The notes beneath the pieces are model-generated. The model saw only the letters and a program-made list of their open reading frames with translations. It searched no databases and was not told where the DNA came from. 22,518 nt of DNA from NCBI GenBank assembly GCA_000002435.2, contig AACB03000010.1. One strand, 5' to 3'. How positions within the stretch are numbered: position 1 is the stretch's first letter; each line of letters begins with the position of its first letter. The translations under genes and the position numbers were made by a program. Origin of the DNA: Giardia intestinalis (taxonomy: Eukaryota). Shown piece by piece: positions 1-18,500 of this stretch.

Positions 1-928
1 GAGGTACCAGCGGGGCCGGCCGATGGGCACGTGCTGCCACTGCAAGCAGCCCTTCCTTCCCAGGCACCATCTGGTGTGCAAGGCCATTAACGGGATTCAC
101 GTGCGCGGCACGACAAGATTCTGGACGCCCTGCTCGCGTGCTCCCGCGGTCGCGCTGGGTCTGTTGTGCGCAATCCCACGATCCCAGTGGATCACCTCCA
201 GCCTGACCTTGTCATCGGTGGGGGCTTCGGGGACTTGGTGGTCACTGTCCCGTGGAGGCTGGAGCGGTCCTATGCCCTGAAGGCCGCCAAGTATCGCCCC
301 TCGTGCTCCAGGGGCGGGCGGCCCACATCCTCCCCGTCGTGGTCGGTGCTGACGGCGTCCTGCACCACCTGTCTGCGGCCGGACTCGCGTTCGCCGGCGT
401 GGACCTTGCGCGCTTCATGCAGGAGGCGGCGCAGGTCATCCTCTGGCACTACAGGCTGTCGGCCCTCCTGTACGCTGGGCTGCGAGTGGGAGAGGCCGGT
501 GGCACCGCCCCGCCCCTGCAGTATCCCTGCCGGAACCGGCTCCCAACGAGGCTCGGGCTACTCCTCCTACTCCCCTCACCCCTGCCATGTGGAGCCCTGG
601 CACGTCGCCCTCCGTAGAGATCATGGCCGATCTCAGCCAGCATCCTGATGCGGCAGTCCCTCCTCCCTGGGGTCCTGCTGAGGTCTCCTCCTCGATCACC
701 TGGGGCACCGATCACCCCGCACAGCCGGATGCAAACGAACGCCCAGACCCCTTCATGTGCTCAAGGGCCCCCTCCCCGCCTCCACTGGATGACGACAGCC
801 CCGACGATGCAGGAGCACCCGAGCCGGTGCACAAGGCCCTGCCGTCCTTCTTCAAGCGCGTCGGTCCTCCCAAGCCGCATGCCCCTGATGGCTTCTACCC
901 CTTCAAACGCATCGACACGGGGCGCTAG
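1..928 (+). pseudogene. 3' fragment of the RT/REL-endonuclease ORF. It aligns to 7797..8723 of the full copy. It is truncated by the window start and interrupted by several 1-bp homopolymer indels, so the ORF track shows it broken into three reading frames (23..280, 166..648, 587..928).
   Basis: Near-identical to the C-terminal CCHC/PD-(D/E)xK region and tail of the 1109-aa ORF. Indels are seen at ~124 (g missing), ~295 (c missing) and ~487-500 (extra g's) relative to copy 7797..8723. The stop TAG at 926-928 is conserved. Confidence 0.8.
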
Positions 929-2283
929 TGGTCATGCTTGGGCACCCTGCCCGCTGTCGGCTGCCCCACAGCGCGAACGGACCCCTGGGCCTGCGTGCCG
1001 AGCTGTCTCCCCTGGTACTCCTCGCTCGCACCCGAGGCCTCTTGCCCCTATCATTCGGGTGTGCATCACGTCCAGACACGGTGCGATAGATGCCTAGCCG
1101 CGATGCCATACACACTCGACCAGGCCGGGCCAGGCCGGACGCCCCCCTGGATGGCCAGACACCCGCCCTGCCTACGTTTGGGCACTTCCTCGATGGGACT
1201 CGTCATCTGCCCACGCCGCAGCCCGGTGTTCGTCTGTCTGTCCTCCCGGGCAGCGGCGGTCCTTGGGTGCTGAGTCTGGCGAGCTGGTGCTGGGGGAAGA
1301 GGCTAGCCCCGTGTGTCATTCGTACCATCGCACCGCGCCGTGCTGATCCCCCCATGGAACTGCCCGCCAGTGGCCGCCTCCGGTCCGGGGCGGCACAGCC
1401 CTGGCTCGGGCCATCCTCTGCTGCAGCGCCCCGGTGCCCCCTGGAGAGGATGGCCGGGTGCTATGTGCTACTGAGCCCTCGGGTGCATCGCTTCCCCACT
1501 GCCCCCCCTCATGTACCCACTCTGGGCGCCCCGGTACAGGGAACCTGGTCACTCTGGCCCTGGCCTCCAGGTGCTTGCCCTCCAATGGGCCATCCCTCAT
1601 GCGCCTGTGTTTGCCTGGCCCATTCTCCCCTGCTCCTCTCTACCTCTCCTGCTCGGTCTCCGCTGAGTCGCGGTGACGGCTGTTGACAGTCCCGGCCGGG
1701 CCCCCAGGTTTCGCTCCATACCTGGGCCACATGCCTCCCACCAGCGCTGGCACCACATGGGTTGCTTGTCACAGATGGGACTGGCACGCACAGAAGAATA
1801 TGGCTCCACGGCGCTCTGCCGGTCTGTCCTGAGCTGGCGTCATCAGCCTGGACCCGCCCTTAGGGGGCCTCCTCCATCACCCGTGCCTCCCCACACCACC
1901 TCCTAAGCCGTCAGTCTGCTCTCTCAGGCGTGACCTTCTGTCGGCCTCCTGGGCCGTATGGGACCACCGCCCCGCTGCCCCCGCCATCTTGGCCAGACGC
2001 CTCCGGTGAGCCACCATTCTGGAATAGCACGACACGTGTGGATGGGCTAGCTATGGCGCACGGTCCGCACCCTCCCTTCTCACGGACTCCCGGGGACAGT
2101 CCGGACGCGTCTCCCTTGTCCCCGAATCGGTGGCCCCGGCCGATCCCCATCGTGCATCCTTATATGGGGCACTGCACACACCTGTCCACGCTGTCCCCTT
2201 GGGCCGGCCACAGCTCACCCCGTGTGTCGATGGGCCAGAATTTGGGCTCCCCAAACCCCTCCACCCCAAGCTGTTTCCTCGCC
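929..2283 (+). other. Unique ~1.36-kb non-coding region downstream of the ORF, degenerate copy (candidate 3' UTR segment).
   Basis: Colinear with 8724..10080 and 14200..15556. It contains only short P/R/G-rich ORFs typical of GC-rich non-coding DNA. It has two homopolymer indels relative to the interior copies. Confidence 0.6.
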
Positions 2284-5200
2284 GGTTCTCTGGGCTCGCG
2301 CTTCCCTTTTTAGTGCAACAGCATTATGGTGCCTCGCGTATGTGCGCGGTGCAGTGGGCCGGTCTGTAGGCCTGCCTTTGACTGGAATCCTGGATCCCTG
2401 GGTTTCTGGCCCGACGCGTCGTCTTCTACCCCCCAAACAGGCCTGCACTCTTCTTGGTCCACGGGCTATTTGTCTCTTTGTTTCCGCGGCCCAGGGCCTG
2501 CTGGTTGCGCCGGGGCGACGCTCATGGTGGATTTTATTTTTTCCAAATCCAGAATTTGGGCCTGAAGACCGCCCCCGCAGGGCCTGGAGGATGCGGGGAA
2601 TCGGTCCACCCACACCATGCGCTCGAGCAAAGGCCAAGCACCCACGCCATCACGTCTCATCCAGGACTCCTGCGCCGCCACGGAGGAGGATCGGCACCTT
2701 CGCCATCGATCCTCCAGGATGCCCCCTACCACTCCCCCTCACATGGCACGCCTCCCTCGGGCCTGTATGTCTGCATGCCGCTATGCCCTAACACCGCAGG
2801 CCGCCCTCTCCGCGGATCCACTAACACACAGCCTGCAGCGCCTGGCCCCCTGGCCGTGACCCGCGCGCCCCCGCGCACAGGAGCATACCCCTGGAGCTGG
2901 GGAGAAGGCCCCCCTGGCCGCGCCCCCGCCGCGAGACCACGCGGGCACGGGGCTGGGCGCCCCGGGCGGGCCCTTCCCCTCCGTCGTGAGGCTGCCTCCC
3001 CTCCAATGTCCTTACCGCCTTGCGCGCATATTACGTAGTAAACCGCCTCTGTCTGGTTCTCTGGGCTCGCGCTTCCCTTTTTAGTGCAACAGCATTATGG
3101 TGCCTCGCGTATGTGCGCGGTGCAGTGGGCCGGTCTGTAGGCCTGCCTTTGACTGGAATCCTGGATCCCTGGGTTTCTGGCCCGACGCGTCGTCTTCTAC
3201 CCCCCAAACAGGCCTGCACTCTTCTTGGTCCACGGGCTATTTGTCTCTTTGTTTCCGCGGCCCAGGGCCTGCTGGTTGCGCCGGGGCGACGCTCATGGTG
3301 GATTTTATTTTTTCCAAAATCCAGAATTTGGGCCTGAAGACCGCCCCCGCAGGGCCTGGAGGATGCGGGGAATCGGTCCACCCACACCATGCGCTCGAGC
3401 AAAGGCCAAGCACCCACGCCATCACGTCTCATCCAGGACTCCTGCGCCGCCACGGAGGAGGATCGGCACCTTCGCCATCGATCCTCCAGGATGCCCCCCT
3501 ACCACTCCCCCTCACATGGCACGCCTCCCTCGGGCCTGTATGTCTGCATGCCGCTATGCCCTAACACCGCAGGCCGCCCTCTCCGCGGATCCACTAACAC
3601 ACAGCCTGCAGCGCCTGGCCCCCCTGGCCGTGACCCGCGCGCCCCCGCGCACAGGAGCATACCCCTGGAGCTGGGGAGAAGGCCCCCCTGGCCGCGCCCC
3701 CGCCGCGAGACCACGCGGGCACGGGGGCTGGGCGCCCCGGGCGGGCCCTTCCCCTCCGTCGTGAGGCTGCCTCCCCTCCAATGTCCTTACCGCCTTGCGC
3801 GCATATTACGTAGTAAACCGCCTCTGTCTGGTTCTCTGGGCTCGCGCTTCCCTTTTTAGTGCAACAGCATTATGGTGCCTCGCGTATGTGCGCGGTGCAG
3901 TGGGCCGGTCTGTAGGCCTGCCTTTGACTGGAATCCTGGATCCCTGGGTTTCTGGCCCGACGCGTCGTCTTCTACCCCCCAAACAGGCCTGCACTCTTCT
4001 TGGTCCACGGGCTATTTGTCTCTTTGTTTCCGCGGCCCAGGGCCTGCTGGTTGCGCCGGGGCGACGCTCATGGTGGATTTTATTTTTTCCAAAATCCAGA
4101 ATTTGGGCCTGAAGACCGCCCCCGCAGGGCCTGGAGGATGCGGGGAATCGGTCCACCCACACCATGCGCTCGAGCAAAGGCCAAGCACCCACGCCATCAC
4201 GTCTCATCCAGGACTCCTGCGCCGCCACGGAGGAGGATCGGCACCTTCGCCATCGATCCTCCAGGATGCCCCCCTACCACTCCCCCTCACATGGCACGCC
4301 TCCCTCGGGCCTGTATGTCTGCATGCCGCTATGCCCTAACACCGCAGGCCGCCCTCTCCGCGGATCCACTAACACACAGCCTGCAGCGCCTGGCCCCCCT
4401 GGCCGTGACCCGCGCGCCCCCGCGCACAGGAGCATACCCCTGGAGCTGGGGAGAAGGCCCCCCTGGCCGCGCCCCCGCCGCGAGACCACGCGGGCACGGG
4501 GGCTGGGCGCCCCGGGCGGGCCCTTCCCCTCCGTCGTGAGGCTGCCTCCCCTCCAATGTCCTTACCGCCTTGCGCGCATATTACGTAGTAAACCGCCTCT
4601 GTCTGGTTCTCTGGGCTCGCGCTTCCCTTTTTAGTGCAACAGCATTATGGTGCCTCGCGTATGTGCGCGGTGCAGTGGGCCGGTCTGTAGGCCTGCCTTT
4701 GACTGGAATCCTGGATCCCTGGGTTTCTGGCCCGACGCGTCGTCTTCTACCCCCCAAACAGGCCTGCACTCTTCTTGGTCCACGGGCTATTTGTCTCTTT
4801 GTTTCCGCGGCCCAGGGCCTGCTGGTTGCGCCGGGGCGACGCTCATGGTGGATTTTATTTTTTCCAAAATCCAGAATTTGGGCCTGAAGACCGCCCCCGC
4901 AGGGCCTGGAGGATGCGGGGAATCGGTCCACCCACACCATGCGCTCGAGCAAAGGCCAAGCACCCACGCCATCACGTCTCATCCAGGACTCCTGCGCCGC
5001 CACGGAGGAGGATCGGCACCTTCGCCATCGATCCTCCAGGATGCCCCCCTACCACTCCCCCTCACATGGCACGCCTCCCTCGGGCCTGTATGTCTGCATG
5101 CCGCTATGCCCTAACACCGCAGGCCGCCCTCTCCGCGGATCCACTAACACACAGCCTGCAGCGCCTGGCCCCCCTGGCCGTGACCCGCGCGCCCCCGCGC

Positions 5201-5372
5201 ACAGGAGCATACCCCTGGAGCTGGGGAGAAGGCCCCCCTGGCCGCGCCCCCGCCGCGAGACCACGCGGGCACGGGGGCTGGGCGCCCCGGGCGGGCCCTT
5301 CCCCTCCGTCGTGAGGCTGCCTCCCCTCCAATGTCCTTACCGCCTTGCGCGCATATTACGTAGTAAACCGCC
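2284..5372 (+). repeat. Tandem array of four 775-bp monomers. The units are 2284-3054 (771 bp with 4 homopolymer deletions), 3055-3829, 3830-4604 and 4605-5372 (the terminal unit, lacking the last 7 bp 'tctgtct').
   Basis: Exact 775-bp periodicity is seen in identical strings and in the ORF-track repeats at 3020/3795/4570. Each unit starts 'ggttctctgggctcgcgcttccc' and ends 'cgcgcatattacgtagtaaaccgcc' + 'tctgtct'. Confidence 0.95.
5362..5367 (+). promoter_or_regulatory. AGTAAA hexamer (a poly(A)-signal variant; it also fits the AGTRAAY consensus as AGTAAAC), 8 nt upstream of the A16 tract.
   Basis: The sequence reads 'tacgtAGTAAAccgcccct(a)16'. The same hexamer ends every 775-bp monomer. It is a known functional variant of AATAAA, and its position fits a cleavage/polyadenylation site. 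Confidence 0.45.
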
Positions 5373-5375
5373 CCT

Positions 5376-5391
5376 AAAAAAAAAAAAAAAA
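5376..5391 (+). other. Pure A16 tract. It is either the poly(A) tail of the upstream element or an A-rich initiator located 2 nt upstream of the ATG.
   Basis: Homopolymer of 16 A between 'taaaccgcccct' and 'ccATG'. The length is identical at all three unit junctions. Confidence 0.9.
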
Positions 5392-5393
5392 CC

Positions 5394-8300
5394 ATGCGTT
5401 CCGCCCTTTCCGCGCCTTCGGGAACCACGGAGATCGGGGCTTCCTCAGGCCCAGAGCCTCCCAACCACGCTCCAACCGACTCCCACAGGCCCCTACCTAG
5501 GGGCACTCCCGATCCTATGACGCTGGGTGACGGCAACGATGCCTCGACGACCGCCATGGCCCGGCCTTCCTCTTGCGAGCCCCTCTGCGGCTCCCACGGG
5601 CCCCCATCCCCCCAGCCTGGGCCTGGCAACAGCCGTTCCGCCACGGACAACTCTCCCAATGAGTCTTCTCCTGTCCATGGCTTACAGGGCTCCGGGGCCT
5701 CGGTGGCCCGGGACGCCTCTCCTCCCTGCCTGTCGAACGACCTTCTGCCCTGTGGCCAGGAGCCCCTCCCGATTCCCGACGACGGCCTCCCATACGACCT
5801 GGGCCACGACAACTCCCCGTCCATCACGGACGAGCAGGAGGCCCGGGGCGCAGACCTGCCTGCTCCTGGGGGCCGTACGACTGTCTGCGAGCGCTGCGGA
5901 GAGGTGCTGCCTGACTCTGCGGCGATCGATGTCCACATCGGGATGCACCATCCGCCTCCCGGTTCACCTTCTCCGTCGCGCAGCCCTTCTCCGCTGTCGG
6001 GGTCTGCCCCTCCACCTGCAGCCGCCGAGCCCTCTCCCTCGCCAACGCCGGACCCTGTGTTCCCGTATGCATGCAGCATGTGCCGGGCCCGATACAAAAC
6101 GGAGAGGGGGCTGAAGGCCCATATCGCCAGGCTCGGCCACTACCTCCCGCTCGACGCCACAGTCCCCGAGCGCATCGGGGTGCCTAGTGGCAGCCCGTCC
6201 CCTGAGCTGCTTCGCCTCCTCACTGACGTATTCACAGAGATGGCGGGGCGCCTTCCTCCTGTAGAGGCCCTAGCGCGCTTCCTCTCGACGTGCCGCCGCA
6301 TGGAGGGCTCTGGACGGCTCCCCCCGGCGCAGTCGCTTCTCCGGAAGGGGCTGCTCGGCCGGGCATGGCAGGCGCTGTTGAGCGAGACGTCCTCTGCCGC
6401 CAGGGTCCCCGAGCCCCAGGGCAAGGAGCGGGAAGCGATTGTCCATGAGCTCCACCCGCGCCCCATGCCTGTCTCTCTGCCCCCCGTCCATCACGTGCTC
6501 GGCCCGTCGCCCAAGATAACGGCCAAGGCGCTGCTGAAGGAGCTGCAGGCGATGAGGCCTGTCGCGGCCGGACCCTCTGGGCTGGGGAAGCCTCACCTCC
6601 TGCACCTTTGTGGGGCCGCCGGGGCTGCGGAGCTCTTCACCTCTGTCCTGACGACCCTCTTCTCCAGCAGGAACTGGGCCCAGCTCCAGCCCCTGTGCGA
6701 GTTCAGGCTGAAGCTTCTGCCCAAGTCTGGCGGCCGATGGCGCCCTATCGCAGTGCAGGAGACGCTTCTGGTCGCCTTCCACCGCTTGCTCCTGCGTCGG
6801 ACTCCCGCGCTCCGCAAGCTCCCGGCGTGGCAGCTGGCCTTTGAGCACCTCGCCCAGATGAAGGCGATCCGCGCGGCCGAGGAGCTGAAGAGGACACACC
6901 ACCTGCTCACGGTGGATGTGCGGAATGCCTTCAACAGCGTCCCGCATTCCGTCATCCTCTTTGCGCTCCGCCGGGCAGGGGTGGTCCAGCCGACCGTCGC
7001 GTACATTGAGTCGTTCCTCGCGGCTCGGCACTCCTCGGACCTCCCCGCGGTCCCAGCGGGCGTGCCACAGGGGGACCCGCTGTCCATGGCGATGTTCTGC
7101 CAGAGCCTTGTCTGGCCGGTGGAGACGTACCTCGGCCAGTACAAGGTCGTTGCATACGCCGACGACCTCGTCATTGCGTCAGAGGAGGCGATTCCCATAG
7201 ATACCGTGAAGAGTGACGCGCAGTCTGCCCTCTCCCGCATAGGGCTCACGGTCGAGCTCTCGAAGTGCTCCTCGACCCAGGCCGGGGCGATCTCCTTCAT
7301 GGGCACCCGCGTGCTCAAGCACTCCTCCTTCAACCTCGCGCAGACATCGGCCCGCCGGCTCCACGAGCATCTCGCCGTCCTCCGTGCTTCGGGTCTCTCA
7401 CTCCACGACCGCCTCAGGCTCCTGTCTGCCTGCGTCGTCCCTGCAGTTAACTATGGACCCCTTGTTGACGACTACCCGGGCCCGTCCCCCTATGCCGACG
7501 TCGATGCGCAGATAGTGGAGGAGGTCGCGACCCTTCTGGAGATCCCCGAACCCCTTGCGAAGACCCTTGCTCTGACGCCCCGCGCGAAGTACGGCCTCGG
7601 ACTGGTGCTGCCCCATCACTACTACGACGAGATGCACAGGCAGCGCCAGGACATGAAGGCGGGCGTCTTCCGCGAGCTGAGGAAGAAGCGCCTGCAGGAC
7701 ACGGCCGCGCTCCGATCCTTCCTGCCGCTCGCATTGCTGGGCTGCGCACCCCTGGACAACACGCAGGTCCTGTTCATAGGGGACTGCTTGGCGGGGAGGT
7801 ACCAGCGGGGCCGGCCGATGGGCACGTGCTGCCACTGCAAGCAGCCCTTCCTTCCCAGGCACCATCTGGTGTGCAAGGCCATTAACGGGATTCACGTGGC
7901 GCGGCACGACAAGATTCTGGACGCCCTGCTCGCGTGCTCCCGCGGTCGCGCTGGGTCTGTTGTGCGCAATCCCACGATCCCAGTGGATCACCTCCAGCCT
8001 GACCTTGTCATCGGTGGGGGCTTCGGGGACTTGGTGGTCACTGTCCCGTGGAGGCTGGAGCGGTCCTATGCCCTGAAGGCCGCCAAGTATCGCCCCCTCG
8101 TGCTCCAGGGGCGGGCGGCCCACATCCTCCCCGTCGTGGTCGGTGCTGACGGCGTCCTGCACCACCTGTCTGCGGCCGGACTCGCGTTCGCCGGCGTGGA
8201 CCTTGCGCGCTTCATGCAGGAGGCGGCGCAGGTCATCCTCTGGCACTACAGGCTGTCGGCCCTCCTGTACGCTGGGCTGCGAGTGGAGAGGCCGGTGCAC

Positions 8301-8723
8301 CGCCCCGCCCCTGCAGTATCCCTGCCGGAACCGGCTCCCAACGAGGCTCGGGCTACTCCTCCTACTCCCCTCACCCCTGCCATGTGGAGCCCTGGCACGT
8401 CGCCCTCCGTAGAGATCATGGCCGATCTCAGCCAGCATCCTGATGCGGCAGTCCCTCCTCCCTGGGGTCCTGCTGAGGTCTCCTCCTCGATCACCTGGGG
8501 CACCGATCACCCCGCACAGCCGGATGCAAACGAACGCCCAGACCCCTTCATGTGCTCAAGGGCCCCCTCCCCGCCTCCACTGGATGACGACAGCCCCGAC
8601 GATGCAGGAGCACCCGAGCCGGTGCACAAGGCCCTGCCGTCCTTCTTCAAGCGCGTCGGTCCTCCCAAGCCGCATGCCCCTGATGGCTTCTACCCCTTCA
8701 AACGCATCGACACGGGGCGCTAG
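5394..8723 (+). CDS. Non-LTR retrotransposon polyprotein (1109 aa). It has an N-terminal S/P-rich region, 2x C2H2 zinc finger, reverse transcriptase, a CCHC motif and a REL (PD-(D/E)xK) endonuclease. The C-terminal ~150 aa is a P-rich extension.
   Basis: Intact RT motifs are present: LPKSGGRWRPIAV (motifs 1/2), LLTVDVRNAFNSVPH (A), AGVPQGDPLSMAMF (B'), VVAYADDLVIAS (C, YADD at 7155..7166), LTVELSKCS (D). CCHC 'CCHCKQPFLPRHHLVC' is followed by 'RHDKIL'. The endonuclease segment reads 'QPDLVIGGGFGDLVVTVPWRLERSYALKAAKY', matching the R2-type PDLV...D-V-T-V...K..KY pattern. The ATG sits immediately after the A16 tract. Antisense ORFs are low-complexity. Confidence 0.9.
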   Translation: MRSALSAPSGTTEIGASSGPEPPNHAPTDSHRPLPRGTPDPMTLGDGNDASTTAMARPSSCEPLCGSHGPPSPQPGPGNSRSATDNSPNESSPVHGLQGSGASVARDASPPCLSNDLLPCGQEPLPIPDDGLPYDLGHDNSPSITDEQEARGADLPAPGGRTTVCERCGEVLPDSAAIDVHIGMHHPPPGSPSPSRSPSPLSGSAPPPAAAEPSPSPTPDPVFPYACSMCRARYKTERGLKAHIARLGHYLPLDATVPERIGVPSGSPSPELLRLLTDVFTEMAGRLPPVEALARFLSTCRRMEGSGRLPPAQSLLRKGLLGRAWQALLSETSSAARVPEPQGKEREAIVHELHPRPMPVSLPPVHHVLGPSPKITAKALLKELQAMRPVAAGPSGLGKPHLLHLCGAAGAAELFTSVLTTLFSSRNWAQLQPLCEFRLKLLPKSGGRWRPIAVQETLLVAFHRLLLRRTPALRKLPAWQLAFEHLAQMKAIRAAEELKRTHHLLTVDVRNAFNSVPHSVILFALRRAGVVQPTVAYIESFLAARHSSDLPAVPAGVPQGDPLSMAMFCQSLVWPVETYLGQYKVVAYADDLVIASEEAIPIDTVKSDAQSALSRIGLTVELSKCSSTQAGAISFMGTRVLKHSSFNLAQTSARRLHEHLAVLRASGLSLHDRLRLLSACVVPAVNYGPLVDDYPGPSPYADVDAQIVEEVATLLEIPEPLAKTLALTPRAKYGLGLVLPHHYYDEMHRQRQDMKAGVFRELRKKRLQDTAALRSFLPLALLGCAPLDNTQVLFIGDCLAGRYQRGRPMGTCCHCKQPFLPRHHLVCKAINGIHVARHDKILDALLACSRGRAGSVVRNPTIPVDHLQPDLVIGGGFGDLVVTVPWRLERSYALKAAKYRPLVLQGRAAHILPVVVGADGVLHHLSAAGLAFAGVDLARFMQEAAQVILWHYRLSALLYAGLRVERPVHRPAPAVSLPEPAPNEARATPPTPLTPAMWSPGTSPSVEIMADLSQHPDAAVPPPWGPAEVSSSITWGTDHPAQPDANERPDPFMCSRAPSPPPLDDDSPDDAGAPEPVHKALPSFFKRVGPPKPHAPDGFYPFKRIDTGR
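5886..5952 (+). other. C2H2 zinc finger 1 (C-x2-C-x12-H-x3-H): CERCGEVLPDSAAIDVHIGMHH.
   Basis: Spacing of the Cys/His residues in the translated ORF. Confidence 0.75.
6072..6140 (+). other. C2H2 zinc finger 2 (C-x2-C-x12-H-x5-H): CSMCRARYKTERGLKAHIARLGH.
   Basis: Spacing of the Cys/His residues. It is separated from ZF1 by an SP-rich linker (SPSPSRSPSPLSGS...). Confidence 0.7.
6700..7320 (+). other. Reverse-transcriptase core (motifs 1 to E).
   Basis: LPK at 6717-6725, YADD at 7155-7166, FMGTRV at 7296-7313. Confidence 0.85.
7827..8090 (+). other. CCHC zinc motif plus restriction-enzyme-like (PD-(D/E)xK) endonuclease domain.
   Basis: tgc tgc cac tgc at 7827-7838, PD at 7998-8003, D of 'GDLVVTV' at 8028-8030, K..KY at ~8076-8090. 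Confidence 0.8.
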
Positions 8724-10080
8724 TGGTCATGCTTGGGCACCCTGCCCGCTGTCGGCTGCCCCACAGCGCGAACGGACCCCTGGGCCTGCGTGCCGAGCTG
8801 TCTCCCCTGGTACTCCTCGCTCGCACCCGAGGCCTCTTGCCCCTATCATTCGGGTGTGCATCACGTCCAGACACGGTGCGATAGATGCCTAGCCGCGATG
8901 CCATACACACTCGACCAGGCCGGGCCAGGCCGGACGCCCCCCTGGATGGCCAGACACCCGCCCTGCCTACGTTTGGGCACTTCCTCGATGGGACTCGTCA
9001 TCTGCCCACGCCGCAGCCCGGTGTTCGTCTGTCTGTCCTCCCGGGCAGCGGCGGTCCTTGGGTGCTGAGTCTGGCGAGCTGGTGCTGGGGGAAGAGGCTA
9101 GCCCCGTGTGTCATTCGTACCATCGCACCGCGCCGTGCTGATCCCCCCATGGAACTGCCCGCCAGTGGCCGCCTCCGGTCCGGGGCGGCACAGCCCTGGC
9201 TCGGGCCATCCTCTGCTGCAGCGCCCCGGTGCCCCCTGGAGAGGATGGCCGGGTGCTATGTGCTACTGAGCCCTCGGGTGCATCGCTTCCCCACTGCCCC
9301 CCCTCATGTACCCACTCTGGGCGCCCCGGTACAGGGAACCTGGTCACTCTGGCCCTGGCCTCCAGGTGCTTGCCCTCCAATGGGCCATCCCTCATGCGCC
9401 TGTGTTTGCCTGGCCCATTCTCCCCTGCTCCTCTCTACCTCTCCTGCTCGGTCTCCGCTGAGTCGCGGTGACGGCTGTTGACAGTCCCGGCCGGGCCCCC
9501 AGGTTTCGCTCCATACCTGGGCCACATGCCTCCCACCAGCGCTGGCACCACATGGGTTGCTTGTCACAGATGGGACTGGCACGCACAGAAGAATATGGCT
9601 CCACGGCGCTCTGCCGGTCTGTCCTGAGCTGGCGTCATCAGCCTGGACCCGCCCTTAGGGGGCCTCCTCCATCACCCGTGCCTCCCCACACCACCTCCTA
9701 AGCCGTCAGTCTGCTCTCTCAGGCGTGACCTTCTGTCGGCCTCCTGGGCCGTATGGGACCACCGCCCCGCTGCCCCCGCCATCTTGGCCAGACGCCTCCG
9801 GTGAGCCACCATTCTGGAATAGCACGACACGTGTGGATGGGCTAGCTATGGCGCACGGTCCGCACCCTCCCTTCTCACGGACTCCCGGGGACAGTCCGGA
9901 CGCGTCTCCCTTGTCCCCCGAATCGGTGGCCCCGGCCGATCCCCATCGTGCATCCTTATATGGGGCACTGCACACACCTGTCCACGCTGTCCCCTTGGGC
10001 CGGCCACAGCTCACCCCGTGTGTCGATGGGCCAGAATTTGGGCTCCCCAAACCCCTCCACCCCCAAGCTGTTTCCTCGCC
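8724..10080 (+). other. Unique 1357-bp non-coding region following the ORF stop (candidate 3' UTR). It ends '...ccaagctgtttcctcgcc' immediately before the first monomer.
   Basis: Conserved in all units. It has no convincing coding potential. The ORFs in it (e.g. 8885..9481) are P/G/R-rich and out of frame with the RT. Confidence 0.65.
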
Positions 10081-10848
10081 GGTTCTCTGGGCTCGCGCTT
10101 CCCTTTTTAGTGCAACAGCATTATGGTGCCTCGCGTATGTGCGCGGTGCAGTGGGCCGGTCTGTAGGCCTGCCTTTGACTGGAATCCTGGATCCCTGGGT
10201 TTCTGGCCCGACGCGTCGTCTTCTACCCCCCAAACAGGCCTGCACTCTTCTTGGTCCACGGGCTATTTGTCTCTTTGTTTCCGCGGCCCAGGGCCTGCTG
10301 GTTGCGCCGGGGCGACGCTCATGGTGGATTTTATTTTTTCCAAAATCCAGAATTTGGGCCTGAAGACCGCCCCCGCAGGGCCTGGAGGATGCGGGGAATC
10401 GGTCCACCCACACCATGCGCTCGAGCAAAGGCCAAGCACCCACGCCATCACGTCTCATCCAGGACTCCTGCGCCGCCACGGAGGAGGATCGGCACCTTCG
10501 CCATCGATCCTCCAGGATGCCCCCCTACCACTCCCCCTCACATGGCACGCCTCCCTCGGGCCTGTATGTCTGCATGCCGCTATGCCCTAACACCGCAGGC
10601 CGCCCTCTCCGCGGATCCACTAACACACAGCCTGCAGCGCCTGGCCCCCCTGGCCGTGACCCGCGCGCCCCCGCGCACAGGAGCATACCCCTGGAGCTGG
10701 GGAGAAGGCCCCCCTGGCCGCGCCCCCGCCGCGAGACCACGCGGGCACGGGGGCTGGGCGCCCCGGGCGGGCCCTTCCCCTCCGTCGTGAGGCTGCCTCC
10801 CCTCCAATGTCCTTACCGCCTTGCGCGCATATTACGTAGTAAACCGCC
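10081..10848 (+). repeat. Single (terminal-type, 768-bp) copy of the 775-bp monomer.
   Basis: Identical to the terminal monomers 4605-5372 and 17882-18649. Confidence 0.95.
10838..10843 (+). promoter_or_regulatory. AGTAAA poly(A)-signal-like hexamer, 8 nt before the A16 tract.
   Basis: Same context as 5362-5367. Confidence 0.45.
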
Positions 10849-10851
10849 CCT

Positions 10852-10867
10852 AAAAAAAAAAAAAAAA
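10852..10867 (+). other. A16 tract at the unit junction.
   Basis: 16 A's, followed by 'cc' and then ATG at 10870. Confidence 0.9.
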
Positions 10868-10869
10868 CC

Positions 10870-13800
10870 ATGCGTTCCGCCCTTTCCGCGCCTTCGGGAA
10901 CCACGGAGATCGGGGCTTCCTCAGGCCCAGAGCCTCCCAACCACGCTCCAACCGACTCCCACAGGCCCCTACCTAGGGGCACTCCCGATCCTATGACGCT
11001 GGGTGACGGCAACGATGCCTCGACGACCGCCATGGCCCGGCCTTCCTCTTGCGAGCCCCTCTGCGGCTCCCACGGGCCCCCATCCCCCCAGCCTGGGCCT
11101 GGCAACAGCCGTTCCGCCACGGACAACTCTCCCAATGAGTCTTCTCCTGTCCATGGCTTACAGGGCTCCGGGGCCTCGGTGGCCCGGGACGCCTCTCCTC
11201 CCTGCCTGTCGAACGACCTTCTGCCCTGTGGCCAGGAGCCCCTCCCGATTCCCGACGACGGCCTCCCATACGACCTGGGCCACGACAACTCCCCGTCCAT
11301 CACGGACGAGCAGGAGGCCCGGGGCGCAGACCTGCCTGCTCCTGGGGGCCGTACGACTGTCTGCGAGCGCTGCGGAGAGGTGCTGCCTGACTCTGCGGCG
11401 ATCGATGTCCACATCGGGATGCACCATCCGCCTCCCGGTTCACCTTCTCCGTCGCGCAGCCCTTCTCCGCTGTCGGGGTCTGCCCCTCCACCTGCAGCCG
11501 CCGAGCCCTCTCCCTCGCCAACGCCGGACCCTGTGTTCCCGTATGCATGCAGCATGTGCCGGGCCCGATACAAAACGGAGAGGGGGCTGAAGGCCCATAT
11601 CGCCAGGCTCGGCCACTACCTCCCGCTCGACGCCACAGTCCCCGAGCGCATCGGGGTGCCTAGTGGCAGCCCGTCCCCTGAGCTGCTTCGCCTCCTCACT
11701 GACGTATTCACAGAGATGGCGGGGCGCCTTCCTCCTGTAGAGGCCCTAGCGCGCTTCCTCTCGACGTGCCGCCGCATGGAGGGCTCTGGACGGCTCCCCC
11801 CGGCGCAGTCGCTTCTCCGGAAGGGGCTGCTCGGCCGGGCATGGCAGGCGCTGTTGAGCGAGACGTCCTCTGCCGCCAGGGTCCCCGAGCCCCAGGGCAA
11901 GGAGCGGGAAGCGATTGTCCATGAGCTCCACCCGCGCCCCATGCCTGTCTCTCTGCCCCCCGTCCATCACGTGCTCGGCCCGTCGCCCAAGATAACGGCC
12001 AAGGCGCTGCTGAAGGAGCTGCAGGCGATGAGGCCTGTCGCGGCCGGACCCTCTGGGCTGGGGAAGCCTCACCTCCTGCACCTTTGTGGGGCCGCCGGGG
12101 CTGCGGAGCTCTTCACCTCTGTCCTGACGACCCTCTTCTCCAGCAGGAACTGGGCCCAGCTCCAGCCCCTGTGCGAGTTCAGGCTGAAGCTTCTGCCCAA
12201 GTCTGGCGGCCGATGGCGCCCTATCGCAGTGCAGGAGACGCTTCTGGTCGCCTTCCACCGCTTGCTCCTGCGTCGGACTCCCGCGCTCCGCAAGCTCCCG
12301 GCGTGGCAGCTGGCCTTTGAGCACCTCGCCCAGATGAAGGCGATCCGCGCGGCCGAGGAGCTGAAGAGGACACACCACCTGCTCACGGTGGATGTGCGGA
12401 ATGCCTTCAACAGCGTCCCGCATTCCGTCATCCTCTTTGCGCTCCGCCGGGCAGGGGTGGTCCAGCCGACCGTCGCGTACATTGAGTCGTTCCTCGCGGC
12501 TCGGCACTCCTCGGACCTCCCCGCGGTCCCAGCGGGCGTGCCACAGGGGGACCCGCTGTCCATGGCGATGTTCTGCCAGAGCCTTGTCTGGCCGGTGGAG
12601 ACGTACCTCGGCCAGTACAAGGTCGTTGCATACGCCGACGACCTCGTCATTGCGTCAGAGGAGGCGATTCCCATAGATACCGTGAAGAGTGACGCGCAGT
12701 CTGCCCTCTCCCGCATAGGGCTCACGGTCGAGCTCTCGAAGTGCTCCTCGACCCAGGCCGGGGCGATCTCCTTCATGGGCACCCGCGTGCTCAAGCACTC
12801 CTCCTTCAACCTCGCGCAGACATCGGCCCGCCGGCTCCACGAGCATCTCGCCGTCCTCCGTGCTTCGGGTCTCTCACTCCACGACCGCCTCAGGCTCCTG
12901 TCTGCCTGCGTCGTCCCTGCAGTTAACTATGGACCCCTTGTTGACGACTACCCGGGCCCGTCCCCCTATGCCGACGTCGATGCGCAGATAGTGGAGGAGG
13001 TCGCGACCCTTCTGGAGATCCCCGAACCCCTTGCGAAGACCCTTGCTCTGACGCCCCGCGCGAAGTACGGCCTCGGACTGGTGCTGCCCCATCACTACTA
13101 CGACGAGATGCACAGGCAGCGCCAGGACATGAAGGCGGGCGTCTTCCGCGAGCTGAGGAAGAAGCGCCTGCAGGACACGGCCGCGCTCCGATCCTTCCTG
13201 CCGCTCGCATTGCTGGGCTGCGCACCCCTGGACAACACGCAGGTCCTGTTCATAGGGGACTGCTTGGCGGGGAGGTACCAGCGGGGCCGGCCGATGGGCA
13301 CGTGCTGCCACTGCAAGCAGCCCTTCCTTCCCAGGCACCATCTGGTGTGCAAGGCCATTAACGGGATTCACGTGGCGCGGCACGACAAGATTCTGGACGC
13401 CCTGCTCGCGTGCTCCCGCGGTCGCGCTGGGTCTGTTGTGCGCAATCCCACGATCCCAGTGGATCACCTCCAGCCTGACCTTGTCATCGGTGGGGGCTTC
13501 GGGGACTTGGTGGTCACTGTCCCGTGGAGGCTGGAGCGGTCCTATGCCCTGAAGGCCGCCAAGTATCGCCCCCTCGTGCTCCAGGGGCGGGCGGCCCACA
13601 TCCTCCCCGTCGTGGTCGGTGCTGACGGCGTCCTGCACCACCTGTCTGCGGCCGGACTCGCGTTCGCCGGCGTGGACCTTGCGCGCTTCATGCAGGAGGC
13701 GGCGCAGGTCATCCTCTGGCACTACAGGCTGTCGGCCCTCCTGTACGCTGGGCTGCGAGTGGAGAGGCCGGTGCACCGCCCCGCCCCTGCAGTATCCCTG

Positions 13801-14199
13801 CCGGAACCGGCTCCCAACGAGGCTCGGGCTACTCCTCCTACTCCCCTCACCCCTGCCATGTGGAGCCCTGGCACGTCGCCCTCCGTAGAGATCATGGCCG
13901 ATCTCAGCCAGCATCCTGATGCGGCAGTCCCTCCTCCCTGGGGTCCTGCTGAGGTCTCCTCCTCGATCACCTGGGGCACCGATCACCCCGCACAGCCGGA
14001 TGCAAACGAACGCCCAGACCCCTTCATGTGCTCAAGGGCCCCCTCCCCGCCTCCACTGGATGACGACAGCCCCGACGATGCAGGAGCACCCGAGCCGGTG
14101 CACAAGGCCCTGCCGTCCTTCTTCAAGCGCGTCGGTCCTCCCAAGCCGCATGCCCCTGATGGCTTCTACCCCTTCAAACGCATCGACACGGGGCGCTAG
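10870..14199 (+). CDS. Non-LTR retrotransposon RT/REL-endonuclease polyprotein, second full copy (1109 aa, identical translation).
   Basis: The ORF-track protein is identical to 5394..8723. All overlapping alternative-frame ORFs are also identical, implying nucleotide identity. Confidence 0.9.
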   Translation: MRSALSAPSGTTEIGASSGPEPPNHAPTDSHRPLPRGTPDPMTLGDGNDASTTAMARPSSCEPLCGSHGPPSPQPGPGNSRSATDNSPNESSPVHGLQGSGASVARDASPPCLSNDLLPCGQEPLPIPDDGLPYDLGHDNSPSITDEQEARGADLPAPGGRTTVCERCGEVLPDSAAIDVHIGMHHPPPGSPSPSRSPSPLSGSAPPPAAAEPSPSPTPDPVFPYACSMCRARYKTERGLKAHIARLGHYLPLDATVPERIGVPSGSPSPELLRLLTDVFTEMAGRLPPVEALARFLSTCRRMEGSGRLPPAQSLLRKGLLGRAWQALLSETSSAARVPEPQGKEREAIVHELHPRPMPVSLPPVHHVLGPSPKITAKALLKELQAMRPVAAGPSGLGKPHLLHLCGAAGAAELFTSVLTTLFSSRNWAQLQPLCEFRLKLLPKSGGRWRPIAVQETLLVAFHRLLLRRTPALRKLPAWQLAFEHLAQMKAIRAAEELKRTHHLLTVDVRNAFNSVPHSVILFALRRAGVVQPTVAYIESFLAARHSSDLPAVPAGVPQGDPLSMAMFCQSLVWPVETYLGQYKVVAYADDLVIASEEAIPIDTVKSDAQSALSRIGLTVELSKCSSTQAGAISFMGTRVLKHSSFNLAQTSARRLHEHLAVLRASGLSLHDRLRLLSACVVPAVNYGPLVDDYPGPSPYADVDAQIVEEVATLLEIPEPLAKTLALTPRAKYGLGLVLPHHYYDEMHRQRQDMKAGVFRELRKKRLQDTAALRSFLPLALLGCAPLDNTQVLFIGDCLAGRYQRGRPMGTCCHCKQPFLPRHHLVCKAINGIHVARHDKILDALLACSRGRAGSVVRNPTIPVDHLQPDLVIGGGFGDLVVTVPWRLERSYALKAAKYRPLVLQGRAAHILPVVVGADGVLHHLSAAGLAFAGVDLARFMQEAAQVILWHYRLSALLYAGLRVERPVHRPAPAVSLPEPAPNEARATPPTPLTPAMWSPGTSPSVEIMADLSQHPDAAVPPPWGPAEVSSSITWGTDHPAQPDANERPDPFMCSRAPSPPPLDDDSPDDAGAPEPVHKALPSFFKRVGPPKPHAPDGFYPFKRIDTGR

Positions 14200-15556: not shown

Positions 15557-18500
15557 GGTTCTCTGGGCTCGCGCTTCCCTTTTTAGTGCAACAGCATTAT
15601 GGTGCCTCGCGTATGTGCGCGGTGCAGTGGGCCGGTCTGTAGGCCTGCCTTTGACTGGAATCCTGGATCCCTGGGTTTCTGGCCCGACGCGTCGTCTTCT
15701 ACCCCCCAAACAGGCCTGCACTCTTCTTGGTCCACGGGCTATTTGTCTCTTTGTTTCCGCGGCCCAGGGCCTGCTGGTTGCGCCGGGGCGACGCTCATGG
15801 TGGATTTTATTTTTTCCAAAATCCAGAATTTGGGCCTGAAGACCGCCCCCGCAGGGCCTGGAGGATGCGGGGAATCGGTCCACCCACACCATGCGCTCGA
15901 GCAAAGGCCAAGCACCCACGCCATCACGTCTCATCCAGGACTCCTGCGCCGCCACGGAGGAGGATCGGCACCTTCGCCATCGATCCTCCAGGATGCCCCC
16001 CTACCACTCCCCCTCACATGGCACGCCTCCCTCGGGCCTGTATGTCTGCATGCCGCTATGCCCTAACACCGCAGGCCGCCCTCTCCGCGGATCCACTAAC
16101 ACACAGCCTGCAGCGCCTGGCCCCCCTGGCCGTGACCCGCGCGCCCCCGCGCACAGGAGCATACCCCTGGAGCTGGGGAGAAGGCCCCCCTGGCCGCGCC
16201 CCCGCCGCGAGACCACGCGGGCACGGGGGCTGGGCGCCCCGGGCGGGCCCTTCCCCTCCGTCGTGAGGCTGCCTCCCCTCCAATGTCCTTACCGCCTTGC
16301 GCGCATATTACGTAGTAAACCGCCTCTGTCTGGTTCTCTGGGCTCGCGCTTCCCTTTTTAGTGCAACAGCATTATGGTGCCTCGCGTATGTGCGCGGTGC
16401 AGTGGGCCGGTCTGTAGGCCTGCCTTTGACTGGAATCCTGGATCCCTGGGTTTCTGGCCCGACGCGTCGTCTTCTACCCCCCAAACAGGCCTGCACTCTT
16501 CTTGGTCCACGGGCTATTTGTCTCTTTGTTTCCGCGGCCCAGGGCCTGCTGGTTGCGCCGGGGCGACGCTCATGGTGGATTTTATTTTTTCCAAAATCCA
16601 GAATTTGGGCCTGAAGACCGCCCCCGCAGGGCCTGGAGGATGCGGGGAATCGGTCCACCCACACCATGCGCTCGAGCAAAGGCCAAGCACCCACGCCATC
16701 ACGTCTCATCCAGGACTCCTGCGCCGCCACGGAGGAGGATCGGCACCTTCGCCATCGATCCTCCAGGATGCCCCCCTACCACTCCCCCTCACATGGCACG
16801 CCTCCCTCGGGCCTGTATGTCTGCATGCCGCTATGCCCTAACACCGCAGGCCGCCCTCTCCGCGGATCCACTAACACACAGCCTGCAGCGCCTGGCCCCC
16901 CTGGCCGTGACCCGCGCGCCCCCGCGCACAGGAGCATACCCCTGGAGCTGGGGAGAAGGCCCCCCTGGCCGCGCCCCCGCCGCGAGACCACGCGGGCACG
17001 GGGGCTGGGCGCCCCGGGCGGGCCCTTCCCCTCCGTCGTGAGGCTGCCTCCCCTCCAATGTCCTTACCGCCTTGCGCGCATATTACGTAGTAAACCGCCT
17101 CTGTCTGGTTCTCTGGGCTCGCGCTTCCCTTTTTAGTGCAACAGCATTATGGTGCCTCGCGTATGTGCGCGGTGCAGTGGGCCGGTCTGTAGGCCTGCCT
17201 TTGACTGGAATCCTGGATCCCTGGGTTTCTGGCCCGACGCGTCGTCTTCTACCCCCCAAACAGGCCTGCACTCTTCTTGGTCCACGGGCTATTTGTCTCT
17301 TTGTTTCCGCGGCCCAGGGCCTGCTGGTTGCGCCGGGGCGACGCTCATGGTGGATTTTATTTTTTCCAAAATCCAGAATTTGGGCCTGAAGACCGCCCCC
17401 GCAGGGCCTGGAGGATGCGGGGAATCGGTCCACCCACACCATGCGCTCGAGCAAAGGCCAAGCACCCACGCCATCACGTCTCATCCAGGACTCCTGCGCC
17501 GCCACGGAGGAGGATCGGCACCTTCGCCATCGATCCTCCAGGATGCCCCCCTACCACTCCCCCTCACATGGCACGCCTCCCTCGGGCCTGTATGTCTGCA
17601 TGCCGCTATGCCCTAACACCGCAGGCCGCCCTCTCCGCGGATCCACTAACACACAGCCTGCAGCGCCTGGCCCCCCTGGCCGTGACCCGCGCGCCCCCGC
17701 GCACAGGAGCATACCCCTGGAGCTGGGGAGAAGGCCCCCCTGGCCGCGCCCCCGCCGCGAGACCACGCGGGCACGGGGGCTGGGCGCCCCGGGCGGGCCC
17801 TTCCCCTCCGTCGTGAGGCTGCCTCCCCTCCAATGTCCTTACCGCCTTGCGCGCATATTACGTAGTAAACCGCCTCTGTCTGGTTCTCTGGGCTCGCGCT
17901 TCCCTTTTTAGTGCAACAGCATTATGGTGCCTCGCGTATGTGCGCGGTGCAGTGGGCCGGTCTGTAGGCCTGCCTTTGACTGGAATCCTGGATCCCTGGG
18001 TTTCTGGCCCGACGCGTCGTCTTCTACCCCCCAAACAGGCCTGCACTCTTCTTGGTCCACGGGCTATTTGTCTCTTTGTTTCCGCGGCCCAGGGCCTGCT
18101 GGTTGCGCCGGGGCGACGCTCATGGTGGATTTTATTTTTTCCAAAATCCAGAATTTGGGCCTGAAGACCGCCCCCGCAGGGCCTGGAGGATGCGGGGAAT
18201 CGGTCCACCCACACCATGCGCTCGAGCAAAGGCCAAGCACCCACGCCATCACGTCTCATCCAGGACTCCTGCGCCGCCACGGAGGAGGATCGGCACCTTC
18301 GCCATCGATCCTCCAGGATGCCCCCCTACCACTCCCCCTCACATGGCACGCCTCCCTCGGGCCTGTATGTCTGCATGCCGCTATGCCCTAACACCGCAGG
18401 CCGCCCTCTCCGCGGATCCACTAACACACAGCCTGCAGCGCCTGGCCCCCCTGGCCGTGACCCGCGCGCCCCCGCGCACAGGAGCATACCCCTGGAGCTG

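What the first reader, a model, noticed from the sequence alone, without database searches (positions are those of the whole stretch)
5394..8723. Single-ORF polyprotein: 2x C2H2 - RT - CCHC - PD-(D/E)xK endonuclease, with long low-complexity N- and C-terminal extensions
Every catalytic motif of the RT (including YADD) and the REL-endonuclease signature (PDLV ... GDLVVTV ... KAAKY) is intact. The three copies are identical, so the element looks currently or very recently active. There is no second ORF and no APE-type endonuclease, which marks the early-branching site-specific lineage. Unusual features are the ~160-aa S/P-rich N-terminus before ZF1, the SP-repeat linker between the two fingers, the absence of an obvious Myb-like motif between ZF2 and the RT, and a ~150-aa proline-rich tail (RPVHRPAPAVSLPEPAPNE...PLDDDSPDD...) after the endonuclease with no recognisable domain.
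Basis: seen in the sequence. Interest (0 to 1): 0.7.

Follow-up and report, generated by a model that had tools for sequence, protein, structure and literature searches.

The report
Known Giardia retrotransposon GilM/Genie 1
The ORF is real and intact, but it belongs to GilM (also called Genie 1), a retrotransposon of the parasite Giardia described in 2001-2002, so the finding confirms known biology.

Summary

The element is already known. The protein is 100% identical to a Giardia duodenalis RT/endonuclease. The minimal repeat unit is 5476 bp, against 5,474 bp published for GilM. Published Genie-1 primers match exactly.

The window is a head-to-tail array. Each ORF is followed by 1357 bp of unique 3' UTR. 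Then come one or four 775-bp repeats, a Giardia polyadenylation signal (AGTAAAC), A16, CC and the next ATG.

Three refinements are small:
- The nuclease has an unusually short PD-x8-D spacing.
- The disordered C-terminal tail carries four conserved short motifs.
- The last 100 nt or so of the 3' UTR forms conserved hairpins with compensatory changes.

Copy identity does not show recent activity, because recombination or assembly polishing explains it equally well. Interest is low.

The parts
5394..8723 (+). GilM/Genie 1 ORF, 1109 aa plus stop. Identical copies lie at 10870-14199 and 18671-22000. A partial copy starting at residue 801 begins at window position 1.
5394..5876 (+). P/S/G-rich, predicted disordered N-terminal extension (aa 1-161). 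It contains one conserved motif, LP(H/Y)DLGHDxSPSxSD, at aa 132-147 (nt 5787-5834).
5886..5948 (+). C2H2 zinc finger 1 (C165, C168, H181, H185). All four ligands are invariant in the family.
6072..6140 (+). C2H2 zinc finger 2 (C227, C230, H243, H249). It has a sub-threshold Pfam zf-C2H2_4 hit (22.4 bits against a 27-bit cut-off). All four ligands are invariant.
6720..7310 (+). Reverse transcriptase domain (Pfam RVT_1, aa 443-639). YADD is at aa 588-591 (nt 7155-7166).
7827..7874 (+). CCHC motif (C812, C815, H823, C827), invariant in the family and in the distant relative P0024.
7902..8276 (+). PD-(D/E)xK restriction-like endonuclease domain (aa 837-961). Motifs are RH 837-838, PD 869-870, D879 and K895..K898-Y899.
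8280..8720 (+). Proline-rich, predicted disordered C-terminal tail (aa 963-1109). It carries four conserved short motifs: SPSVE (~1003-1007), SRAPSPPPL (1055-1063), EP..K.LP.(I/F)FKRV (1075-1088) and (F)YPFKR (~1099-1104).
8724..10080 (+). Unique part of the 3' UTR (1357 bp). It has no detectable nucleotide similarity to the P15 relative.
10081..10851 (+). The 775-bp 3'-terminal repeat unit: one copy here and about four at 2284-5375 and 15557-18652. Its last 100 nt or so is the most conserved nucleotide segment of the family and holds hairpins with compensatory changes. The polyadenylation signal AGTAAAC is at 10838-10844.
10852..10869 (+). Head-to-tail junction: A16 followed by CC, directly before the next ATG. 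The same junction occurs at 5376-5393 and 18653-18670. The pattern A(8-20)-CC(N)-ATG recurs in six related loci.

Best explanation
This is a head-to-tail tandem array of GilM (= Genie 1). GilM is the single-ORF, restriction-like-endonuclease (RLE) non-LTR retrotransposon of Giardia duodenalis WB. The literature describes it as telomere-associated.

Shown here:
- Each unit runs ATG, 1109-aa ORF, 1357-nt unique 3' UTR, one or four 775-nt repeats that each end in the Giardia polyadenylation signal, then a genomic poly(A) tract.
- That tract abuts 'CC-ATG' of the next unit.
- The protein has two C2H2 fingers, an R2-like RT, a CCHC motif and a PD-(D/E)xK nuclease.

Inferred:
1. The 775-nt repeat is the element's own 3' end, not a host target.
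2. The RNA is polyadenylated after the last AGTAAAC, and the protein recognises the conserved hairpin module at the 3' end, as R2 protein binds its 3' UTR.
3. The fingers position the nuclease (D870, D879, K895) to nick at a fixed site. cDNA is then primed from the nick (target-primed reverse transcription), leaving poly(A) joined precisely to the 5' end of a resident copy.
4. Transcription of each copy starts in or beside the upstream neighbour's A-tract. This is the only AT-rich patch in DNA of about 67% GC, and Giardia initiators are AT-rich patches that give 5' UTRs of 1-27 nt.
5. Unequal crossing-over changes the number of 775-nt repeats and homogenises the copies.
For: **Identity**
- The protein is 100% identical to an NCBI 'Reverse transcriptase/endonuclease [Giardia duodenalis]' found on a 4.0-Mb contig.
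- The ATG-to-ATG unit is 5476 bp. Xu et al. 2020 give 5,474 bp for GilM at the 5' end of chromosome 5 (PMC7000408).
- The Genie-1 primers of PMC1950533 match exactly at 6652-6669 (+) and 6952-6969 (-) in all three copies.

**Protein**
- Pfam RVT_1 matches at E 4e-21.
- A family profile hits the R2 structures 9nl2, 9dou and 9nl3 in the finger, RT and CCHC/RLE segments.
- Foldseek ranks the R2 proteins first, at E 5e-20 to 2e-14, ahead of LINE-1 ORF2p.
- The RH, PD, D and K..KY motifs are invariant. PMC4838377 shows RH and K..KY to be needed for R2Bm cleavage.

**Architecture**
- Self-BLAST shows the array.
- The junction AGTAAAC-N8-A16-CC-ATG occurs three times.
- The junction type recurs in six related loci, with A-tracts of 8-20 nt. 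Two adjacent junctions in the P15 strain differ: A15-CCA and A9-CC.
- AGT[A/G]AA[T/C] is the Giardia polyadenylation consensus (PMC1872034).

**3' module belongs to the element**
- The 3'-terminal 170-230 nt are 80-85% identical to the P15 relative. The ORF is 67% identical and the rest of the UTR does not align.
- The two P15 families carry different versions of the module.
- All 26 proposed pairs are kept in every sequence, and 4 pairs show compensatory changes. Slid controls pair at only 36-60%.

**Promoter idea**
- Giardia initiators are degenerate AT-rich patches, and 5' UTRs can be 1-3 nt (PMC1885649; PMC1872034).
Against: - No telomeric TAGGG repeats occur in the window or the related loci. 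Telomere association therefore rests on the literature alone.
- The three A-tracts in the window are identical (A16). The copies here were therefore probably multiplied by recombination, or collapsed by the assembler, rather than made by three separate retrotransposition events.
- The original descriptions could not be read. PMC1950533 paraphrases Burke et al. [quoted passage not shown]
- The RNA-structure evidence comes from 7 sequences. The single-sequence folding energy is unremarkable (z = -0.15).
- The position equivalent to R2's second catalytic aspartate is T883 in gapless alignments.
Confidence: 0.85

Rival explanations
1. The 775-bp unit is a host tandem repeat that serves as the specific insertion target. 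On this reading the element proper is only the ORF plus 1357 bp, inserted at one site of that repeat. This is how Burke et al. 2002 are paraphrased.
For: [quoted passage not shown]
- Each block of repeats is almost a whole number of units: about 4 x 775 minus 7 bp.
- Internal repeat junctions read ...AGTAAACCGCC-TCTGTCT-GGTTC with no poly(A). This resembles an interrupted satellite in which 7 bp were replaced.
Against: - This reading puts the poly(A) tract at the 5' side of the ORF, on the coding strand, and leaves the element with no poly(A) at its 3' end.
- The A-tract sits 8 nt after a consensus Giardia polyadenylation signal.
- The P15 relative has a 5817-bp unit with only one copy of the module and no internal repeats.
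- The two families in the P15 genome carry distinct module sequences, which is not expected of a shared host target.
- In all seven loci examined the module comes directly before the poly(A) tract.
Confidence: 0.15
2. The array is now maintained only by recombination (unequal crossing-over, gene conversion). On this reading the element no longer retrotransposes, and the intact ORFs reflect homogenisation or assembly polishing, not activity.
For: - The three A-tracts are identical, and the three ORFs and two 3' UTRs are 100% identical.
- The internal repeat number varies (4, 1, 4), which is typical of unequal exchange.
- All copy differences are 1-bp indels, almost all in homopolymer runs, near the window ends. 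This is typical of long-read error.
- Xu et al. report that this region was collapsed, with 1,800x read depth against 200x genome-wide.
Against: - Every catalytic and zinc-binding residue is invariant across 21 lineages at 48-63% identity, which indicates long-term purifying selection on the protein.
- Poly(A) lengths differ between adjacent P15 junctions and among families (8-20 nt), as independent target-primed reverse transcription events would give.
- The literature reports transcripts and small RNAs from these elements.
Confidence: 0.3
3. The element is effectively domesticated as a telomere-maintenance or telomere-buffering device. It would add to chromosome ends without using its endonuclease, as HeT-A and TART do in Drosophila.
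For: - The literature places GilM and GilT at chromosome ends, oriented so that reverse transcription runs toward the end (PMC10999387; PMC10088271).
- The head-to-tail poly(A) arrays seen here resemble HeT-A/TART arrays.
- The coding strand is C-rich throughout, with GC skew from -0.05 to -0.23. This is compatible with the published G4 asymmetry.
Against: - Junctions are precise (poly(A)-CC-ATG) in all eight cases examined. Erosion followed by end addition would produce variable 5' truncations instead.
- The nuclease motifs are invariant, so the endonuclease is under selection.
- Giardia has telomerase and TAGGG telomeres (PMC10999387).
- No telomere repeats lie in the window.
Confidence: 0.2

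Closest known systems
GilM (Arkhipova & Morrison 2001), also named Genie 1 (Burke, Malik, Rich & Eickbush 2002), of Giardia lamblia/duodenalis WB
   Same: - The protein is 100% identical to the annotated G. duodenalis protein.
- The unit is 5476 bp against the published 5,474 bp.
- Genie-1 primers match exactly.
- The head-to-tail tandem array structure is as described.
   Different: Nothing substantive. Two of the three units here carry four 775-bp 3' repeats instead of one. That is a copy-number variant of the same element.
R2 elements (R2Bm, R2Tg and R2 of Platysternon megacephalum; PDB 8gh6, 8ibw, 9dou, 9nl2, 9nl3)
   Same: - The order is the same: N-terminal C2H2 fingers, RT, CCHC, then a PD-(D/E)xK nuclease with RH, PD, D and K..KY motifs, all in a single ORF with no APE domain.
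- R2 proteins are the best sequence and fold matches.
- Both probably recognise a structured 3' UTR.
   Different: - No Myb motif is detectable.
- The PD-D spacing is x8 instead of x12.
- Disordered extensions of about 160 aa (N-terminal) and about 147 aa (C-terminal) are present.
- The element ends in poly(A), has a 5' UTR of only 2-3 nt and gives no HDV-like ribozyme hit.
- It does not sit in 28S rDNA. It is joined to copies of itself.
CRE-clade elements of trypanosomatids (CRE1/2, SLACS, CZAR)
   Same: - These are also RLE-type, site-specific, early-branching non-LTR elements of a protist, with fingers, RT, CCHC and RLE.
- One published RT tree places GilM and GilT with the CRE clade (PMC10088271).
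   Different: - The target is different. No spliced-leader sequence is present in the window.
- SLACS and CZAR have two ORFs.
- No CRE sequences were compared directly here.
Drosophila telomeric retrotransposons HeT-A, TART and TAHRE
   Same: - Both form head-to-tail arrays with poly(A) tracts at the junctions.
- GilM may share a promoter logic in which the 3' end of one copy drives its downstream neighbour. This is known for HeT-A from my own knowledge and is only inferred here.
   Different: - The Drosophila elements belong to the APE-bearing Jockey clade and have a gag-like ORF1.
- Their junctions carry variable 5' truncations.
- Here there is one ORF, an RLE nuclease and precise junctions.

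Membership tests
GilM / Genie 1 of Giardia | Sequence identity with the Giardia element | tested here: met
   The protein is 100% identical over 100% of its length to an NCBI G. duodenalis RT/endonuclease. Published Genie-1 primers match exactly in all three copies.
GilM / Genie 1 of Giardia | Unit length of about 5.47 kb encoding one RT ORF | tested here: met
   ATG-to-ATG spacing is 5476 bp for the unit with one 3' repeat. The published value is 5,474 bp (PMC7000408).
GilM / Genie 1 of Giardia | Head-to-tail tandem arrays | tested here: met
   Three full units and one partial unit lie in direct orientation, joined by A16-CC.
GilM / Genie 1 of Giardia | Telomeric or subtelomeric position | not testable with these tools
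   No TAGGG repeats occur in the window or the related loci, and the chromosomal context is not available. The location rests on the literature.
RLE-bearing (R2-like, early-branching) non-LTR retrotransposons | LINE-type reverse transcriptase | tested here: met
   RVT_1 matches at E 3.8e-21 and YADD is present. R2 proteins are the top sequence and fold matches.
RLE-bearing (R2-like, early-branching) non-LTR retrotransposons | CCHC motif followed by a PD-(D/E)xK nuclease, C-terminal to the RT | tested here: met
RLE-bearing (R2-like, early-branching) non-LTR retrotransposons | No APE (Exo_endo_phos) endonuclease | tested here: met
   Pfam gives no such hit at E <= 1 in the ORF. The ten other long ORFs give no Pfam hit.
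RLE-bearing (R2-like, early-branching) non-LTR retrotransposons | Insertion at one specific sequence | tested here: inconclusive
   All eight junctions examined, in seven loci, are poly(A)-CC(N)-ATG. That fits site-specific insertion. Amplification of a single junction by recombination would look the same within any one array.
RLE-bearing (R2-like, early-branching) non-LTR retrotransposons | Nicking and target-primed reverse transcription activity | not testable with these tools
   This needs biochemistry. Only conservation of the motifs was shown.
R2 clade in the strict sense | Myb motif after the N-terminal finger(s) | tested here: not met
   Pfam gives no Myb hit at E <= 1. The profile alignment to an R2-like protein that carries a Myb-like motif (read by eye in P0091) starts only at residue 373. 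A fold-level test of the helical region 270-353 was not done.
R2 clade in the strict sense | Insertion in 28S rDNA, with a 5' HDV-like ribozyme | tested here: not met
   No rRNA or ribozyme family was found at Rfam gathering score in the whole window. None was found at E <= 1 in 8700-11000.
Drosophila-type telomeric retrotransposons (HeT-A/TART) | Gag-like ORF1, APE lineage, and 5'-truncated junctions | tested here: not met
   There is a single ORF, an RLE nuclease and precise junctions.

The most novel reading that the evidence does not exclude
The conserved 3'-terminal cassette consists of covarying hairpins, AGTAAAC and the poly(A) tract. It may serve two purposes in all Genie-1-like families. 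As RNA it would be the recognition and priming site for the RT. As DNA, the retro-copied A-tract followed by CC-ATG would be the AT-rich initiator that drives the next copy. A copy would then be expressed only when it lies downstream of another copy. This is a HeT-A-like, array-dependent promoter logic that would have evolved independently in an RLE-type element. The invariant short motifs in the disordered tail could be docking sites for host proteins.
Probability: 0.3. Interest if true: 0.4.

Novelty: already known. Interest (0 to 1): 0.12.

Why it matters
The result shows that the first-stage reader can recover a correct domain architecture from raw sequence. The object itself, however, was described about 25 years ago.

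GilM/Genie 1 has standing interest for two reasons. It is one of the deepest-branching non-LTR lineages. It is also one of the few elements outside Drosophila proposed to be tied to chromosome ends.

The small additions made here could help anyone attempting biochemistry on the Giardia element, now that R2 structures exist:
- the PD-x8-D nuclease variant
- the conserved linear motifs in the tail
- the covarying 3' hairpins
- the junction conserved across many uncharacterised relatives

Tried and rejected
- **Known small-RNA gene as target.** I considered a spliced-leader, 5S, snRNA or tRNA gene array inside the 775-bp repeat. The trypanosomatid SL pattern gave no match with up to 3 mismatches. 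Rfam found nothing at gathering score or at E <= 1 in 8700-11000. No tRNAs were found.
- **Tandem Repeats Finder.** It returned nothing because its period cap is 500. Self-BLAST was used instead.
- **Green-alga Zepp-like element.** I considered this because of the 67% GC. The homology search dropped it.
- **Exact-protein contig look-ups.** Look-ups for the window ORF and for P0001 found nothing on record.
- **Second word-indexed profile search.** It added only two weak proteins, P0024 and P0025. The exhaustive HMMER search was needed to find the intermediate relatives P0033-P0039.
- **Original papers.** Arkhipova & Morrison 2001, Burke et al. 2002 and Ullu et al. 2005 are not held. Their content is cited only through later papers or marked as my own recollection.
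- **'Dead nuclease' reading.** Gapless alignment puts T883 at R2's catalytic aspartate. I rejected this reading because of D879 invariance, the modelled hairpin register and the PD-x9-D relatives.
- **Other ORFs.** The long ORFs on both strands give no Pfam hits and fit the high GC content.


Full report
**Observation**

Window 5394-8723 (+) encodes 1109 aa. Two more ORFs with identical DNA lie at 10870-14199 and 18671-22000. The window also opens inside a fourth copy, at residue 801.

Pfam finds RVT_1 at residues 443-639 (E 3.8e-21), with YADD at 588-591. Pfam finds no APE or Myb domain even at E <= 1. Ten other long ORFs on either strand give no Pfam hit, and they fit the 64-69% GC content.

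**Identity**

A homology search returned a protein that is 100% identical over its full length. It is annotated 'putative Reverse transcriptase/endonuclease [Giardia duodenalis]' and lies on a 4.0-Mb contig. The search also returned about 20 relatives at 48-64% identity, from Giardia P15 and from metagenome and SRA assemblies.

Xu et al. 2020 describe GilM copies of 5,474 bp at the 5' end of chromosome 5 of strain WB (PMC7000408). The smallest unit here is 5476 bp. The 'Genie1' primers of Chen et al. 2007 match exactly at 6652-6669 (+) and 6952-6969 (-) in all three copies (PMC1950533).

The element is therefore GilM (Arkhipova & Morrison 2001), also named Genie 1 (Burke et al. 2002). Those two papers are not held in the library. 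I rely on later papers that cite them.

**Protein anatomy**

In an alignment of 21 family members (A2), the following residues are invariant:
- both finger ligand sets: C165/C168/H181/H185 and C227/C230/H243/H249
- the CCHC motif: C812/C815/H823/C827
- the nuclease motifs: R837-H838, P869-D870, D879, K895 and K898-Y899

These nuclease motifs correspond to the RH, PD, D and K..KY motifs of R2. Mutational work on R2Bm ties RH and K..KY to DNA cleavage (PMC4838377).

Comparison with solved and predicted structures gave a consistent picture:
- The family profile hits solved R2 proteins in three collinear segments: fingers, RT and CCHC/RLE.
- A profile alignment to an R2-like protein is a single collinear block over residues 373-940, with probability 99.1%.
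- An AlphaFold model of the whole protein has mean pLDDT 58 but a well-modelled core. Its best Foldseek hits are the R2 structures, at E 5e-20 to 2e-14, ahead of LINE-1 ORF2p.

**A detail of the active site**

Gapless alignments place T883 (T or A in the family) opposite R2's second catalytic aspartate. Three observations argue that D879 does that job instead.
1. D879 is invariant in the family.
2. The model has beta2 at 871-873 and beta3 at 876-883 with a two-residue turn. This register puts residue 870 opposite 879.
3. The nearest non-family relatives show a range of PD-to-D spacings: x9 in P0034, P0035 and P0063; x12 in P0039, P0060 and P0024; x11-x14 in others.

GilM has the shortest spacing, x8. 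I read this as a shortened hairpin and not as a lost residue.

**The extensions**

Residues 1-161 (P 17%, S 14%, G 12%), the 187-217 linker between the fingers, and residues 963-1109 (P 23%) are predicted disordered. They are not featureless.
- The N-terminus holds a conserved LP(H/Y)DLGHDxSPSxSD motif.
- The tail holds SPSVE, SRAPSPPPL, EP..K.LP.(I/F)FKRV and (F)YPFKR. Some of their positions are invariant or nearly so, while the sequence around them cannot be aligned.

Their function is unknown. Docking or localisation motifs are a reasonable guess.

**Architecture around the ORF**

Self-BLAST shows a head-to-tail array. Each unit has these parts in order:
1. the ORF
2. 1357 bp of unique sequence
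3. a 775-bp unit present about 4, 1 and 4 times (2284-5375, 10081-10851, 15557-18652)
4. A16, then CC, then the next ATG

AGTAAA occurs nine times in the window, once per 775-bp unit and nowhere else. With the following C it matches the Giardia polyadenylation consensus AGT[A/G]AA[T/C] (PMC1872034).

The last unit of each block is followed 8 nt later by the A-tract. Internal unit boundaries read TCTGTCT instead.

Six related loci were fetched: two from Giardia P15 and four from metagenome or SRA assemblies, with GC from 49% to 73%. All show AAGTAAAT, 8-10 nt, an A-tract of 8-20 nt, CC(N) and then ATG. Two adjacent P15 junctions differ, with A15-CCA and A9-CC.

**Is the 775-bp unit a target or a 3' UTR?**

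PMC1950533 paraphrases Burke et al. as describing insertions in a chromosomal repeat. I favour the reading that the unit is the element's own 3' end, for four reasons.
- The A-tract lies on the coding strand just after a polyadenylation signal and just before the next ORF. That is where a retro-copied mRNA tail would lie.
- The P15 relative has one module per 5817-bp unit and no internal repeats.
- The two P15 families carry different versions of the module.
- The module's last 170-230 nt are 80-85% identical between GilM and the P15 element. The ORF is 67% identical and the rest of the UTR does not align.

This conserved segment contains hairpins in which all 26 proposed pairs are kept in every sequence. 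Four pairs change on both sides. Shifted-partner controls pair at only 36-60%. With seven sequences this is suggestive only, and the single-sequence folding energy is unremarkable.

**Mechanism**

The domain set and the junctions are shown. The following steps are inferred.
1. The RNA ends in poly(A) after the last AGTAAAC.
2. The protein binds the 3' hairpin module, as R2 protein binds its 3' UTR.
3. The fingers place the nuclease at a fixed site.
4. Target-primed reverse transcription joins the poly(A) end to the 5' end of a resident copy.

Giardia initiators are loosely defined AT-rich patches, and its 5' UTRs can be 1-3 nt (PMC1885649; PMC1872034). The neighbour's A-tract is therefore a plausible initiator for each copy.

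**Does copy identity mean recent activity?**

It does not. The three A-tracts are identical and the internal repeat number varies. The only differences are 1-bp indels near the window ends, almost all in homopolymer runs. The source assembly reports this region as collapsed, with read depth about nine times the genome average.

Recombination, homogenisation or polishing would explain all of that. Long-term selection on the protein is clear from the family alignment.

**Comparison and verdict**

The element is a member of GilM/Genie 1. It works like R2 but is not in the R2 clade proper. It has no Myb motif, no rDNA target and no ribozyme hit, and it ends in poly(A).

It resembles HeT-A/TART only in array form. 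Telomeric location could not be tested here.

Novelty: already known. Interest: low.

Noticed in passing
window 1-3054 and 22032-22518: All differences between repeat copies are 1-bp indels, almost all in homopolymer runs, with no substitutions. They cluster at the two ends of the window. Four of them (103, 301, 490, 501) break the partial ORF at the window start. This looks like residual long-read error, not real decay.
   Followed up: partly
L003 and L004 (ENA ERZ28628728), L005 (Logan SRR17450158), L002 (ENA ERZ27317019): Many distinct Genie-1-like lineages at 48-63% protein identity occur in metagenome and SRA assemblies, with GC from 49% to 73%. Two lineages come from a single sample. All share the poly(A)-CC-ATG junction. 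They probably come from uncharacterised Giardia lineages or species.
   Followed up: partly
L001 168-185 and 5984-5994 (Giardia P15, ACVC01000013.1): Two adjacent junctions of the same array differ: A15 followed by CCA, and A9 followed by CC. The three junctions in the window are identical.
   Followed up: yes
window 6652-6969 (and the same stretch in the other two copies): This is the stretch that Chen et al. 2007 amplified as 'Genie-1'. They reported that it undergoes Mg2+-dependent self-cleavage as a double-stranded RNA (PMC1950533). It lies inside the RT-coding region. Nothing in the analyses here explains that report.
   Followed up: no
whole window: GC skew is negative in every 1-kb window (-0.05 to -0.23), so the coding strand is C-rich throughout. 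This is compatible with the published excess of G-quadruplex motifs on one strand of GilM (PMC10088271). Strand assignment relative to the telomere was not checked here.
   Followed up: no
proteins P0033-P0039, P0060, P0063, P0125 (exhaustive HMMER search): A set of intermediate relatives (E 1e-76 to 1e-16) spans the RT through the nuclease, with PD-to-D spacings from x9 to x14. One of them has SD in place of PD. Their source organisms are unknown. They may bridge the Giardia elements and other RLE clades.
   Followed up: partly
window residues 270-353 of the ORF (nt 6201-6452): A conserved helical region lies between finger 2 and the RT and includes an almost invariant GLLGRAWQA. It occupies the place where R2 has its Myb motif and spacer. 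Whether it is a divergent DNA-binding helix bundle was not tested.
   Followed up: no
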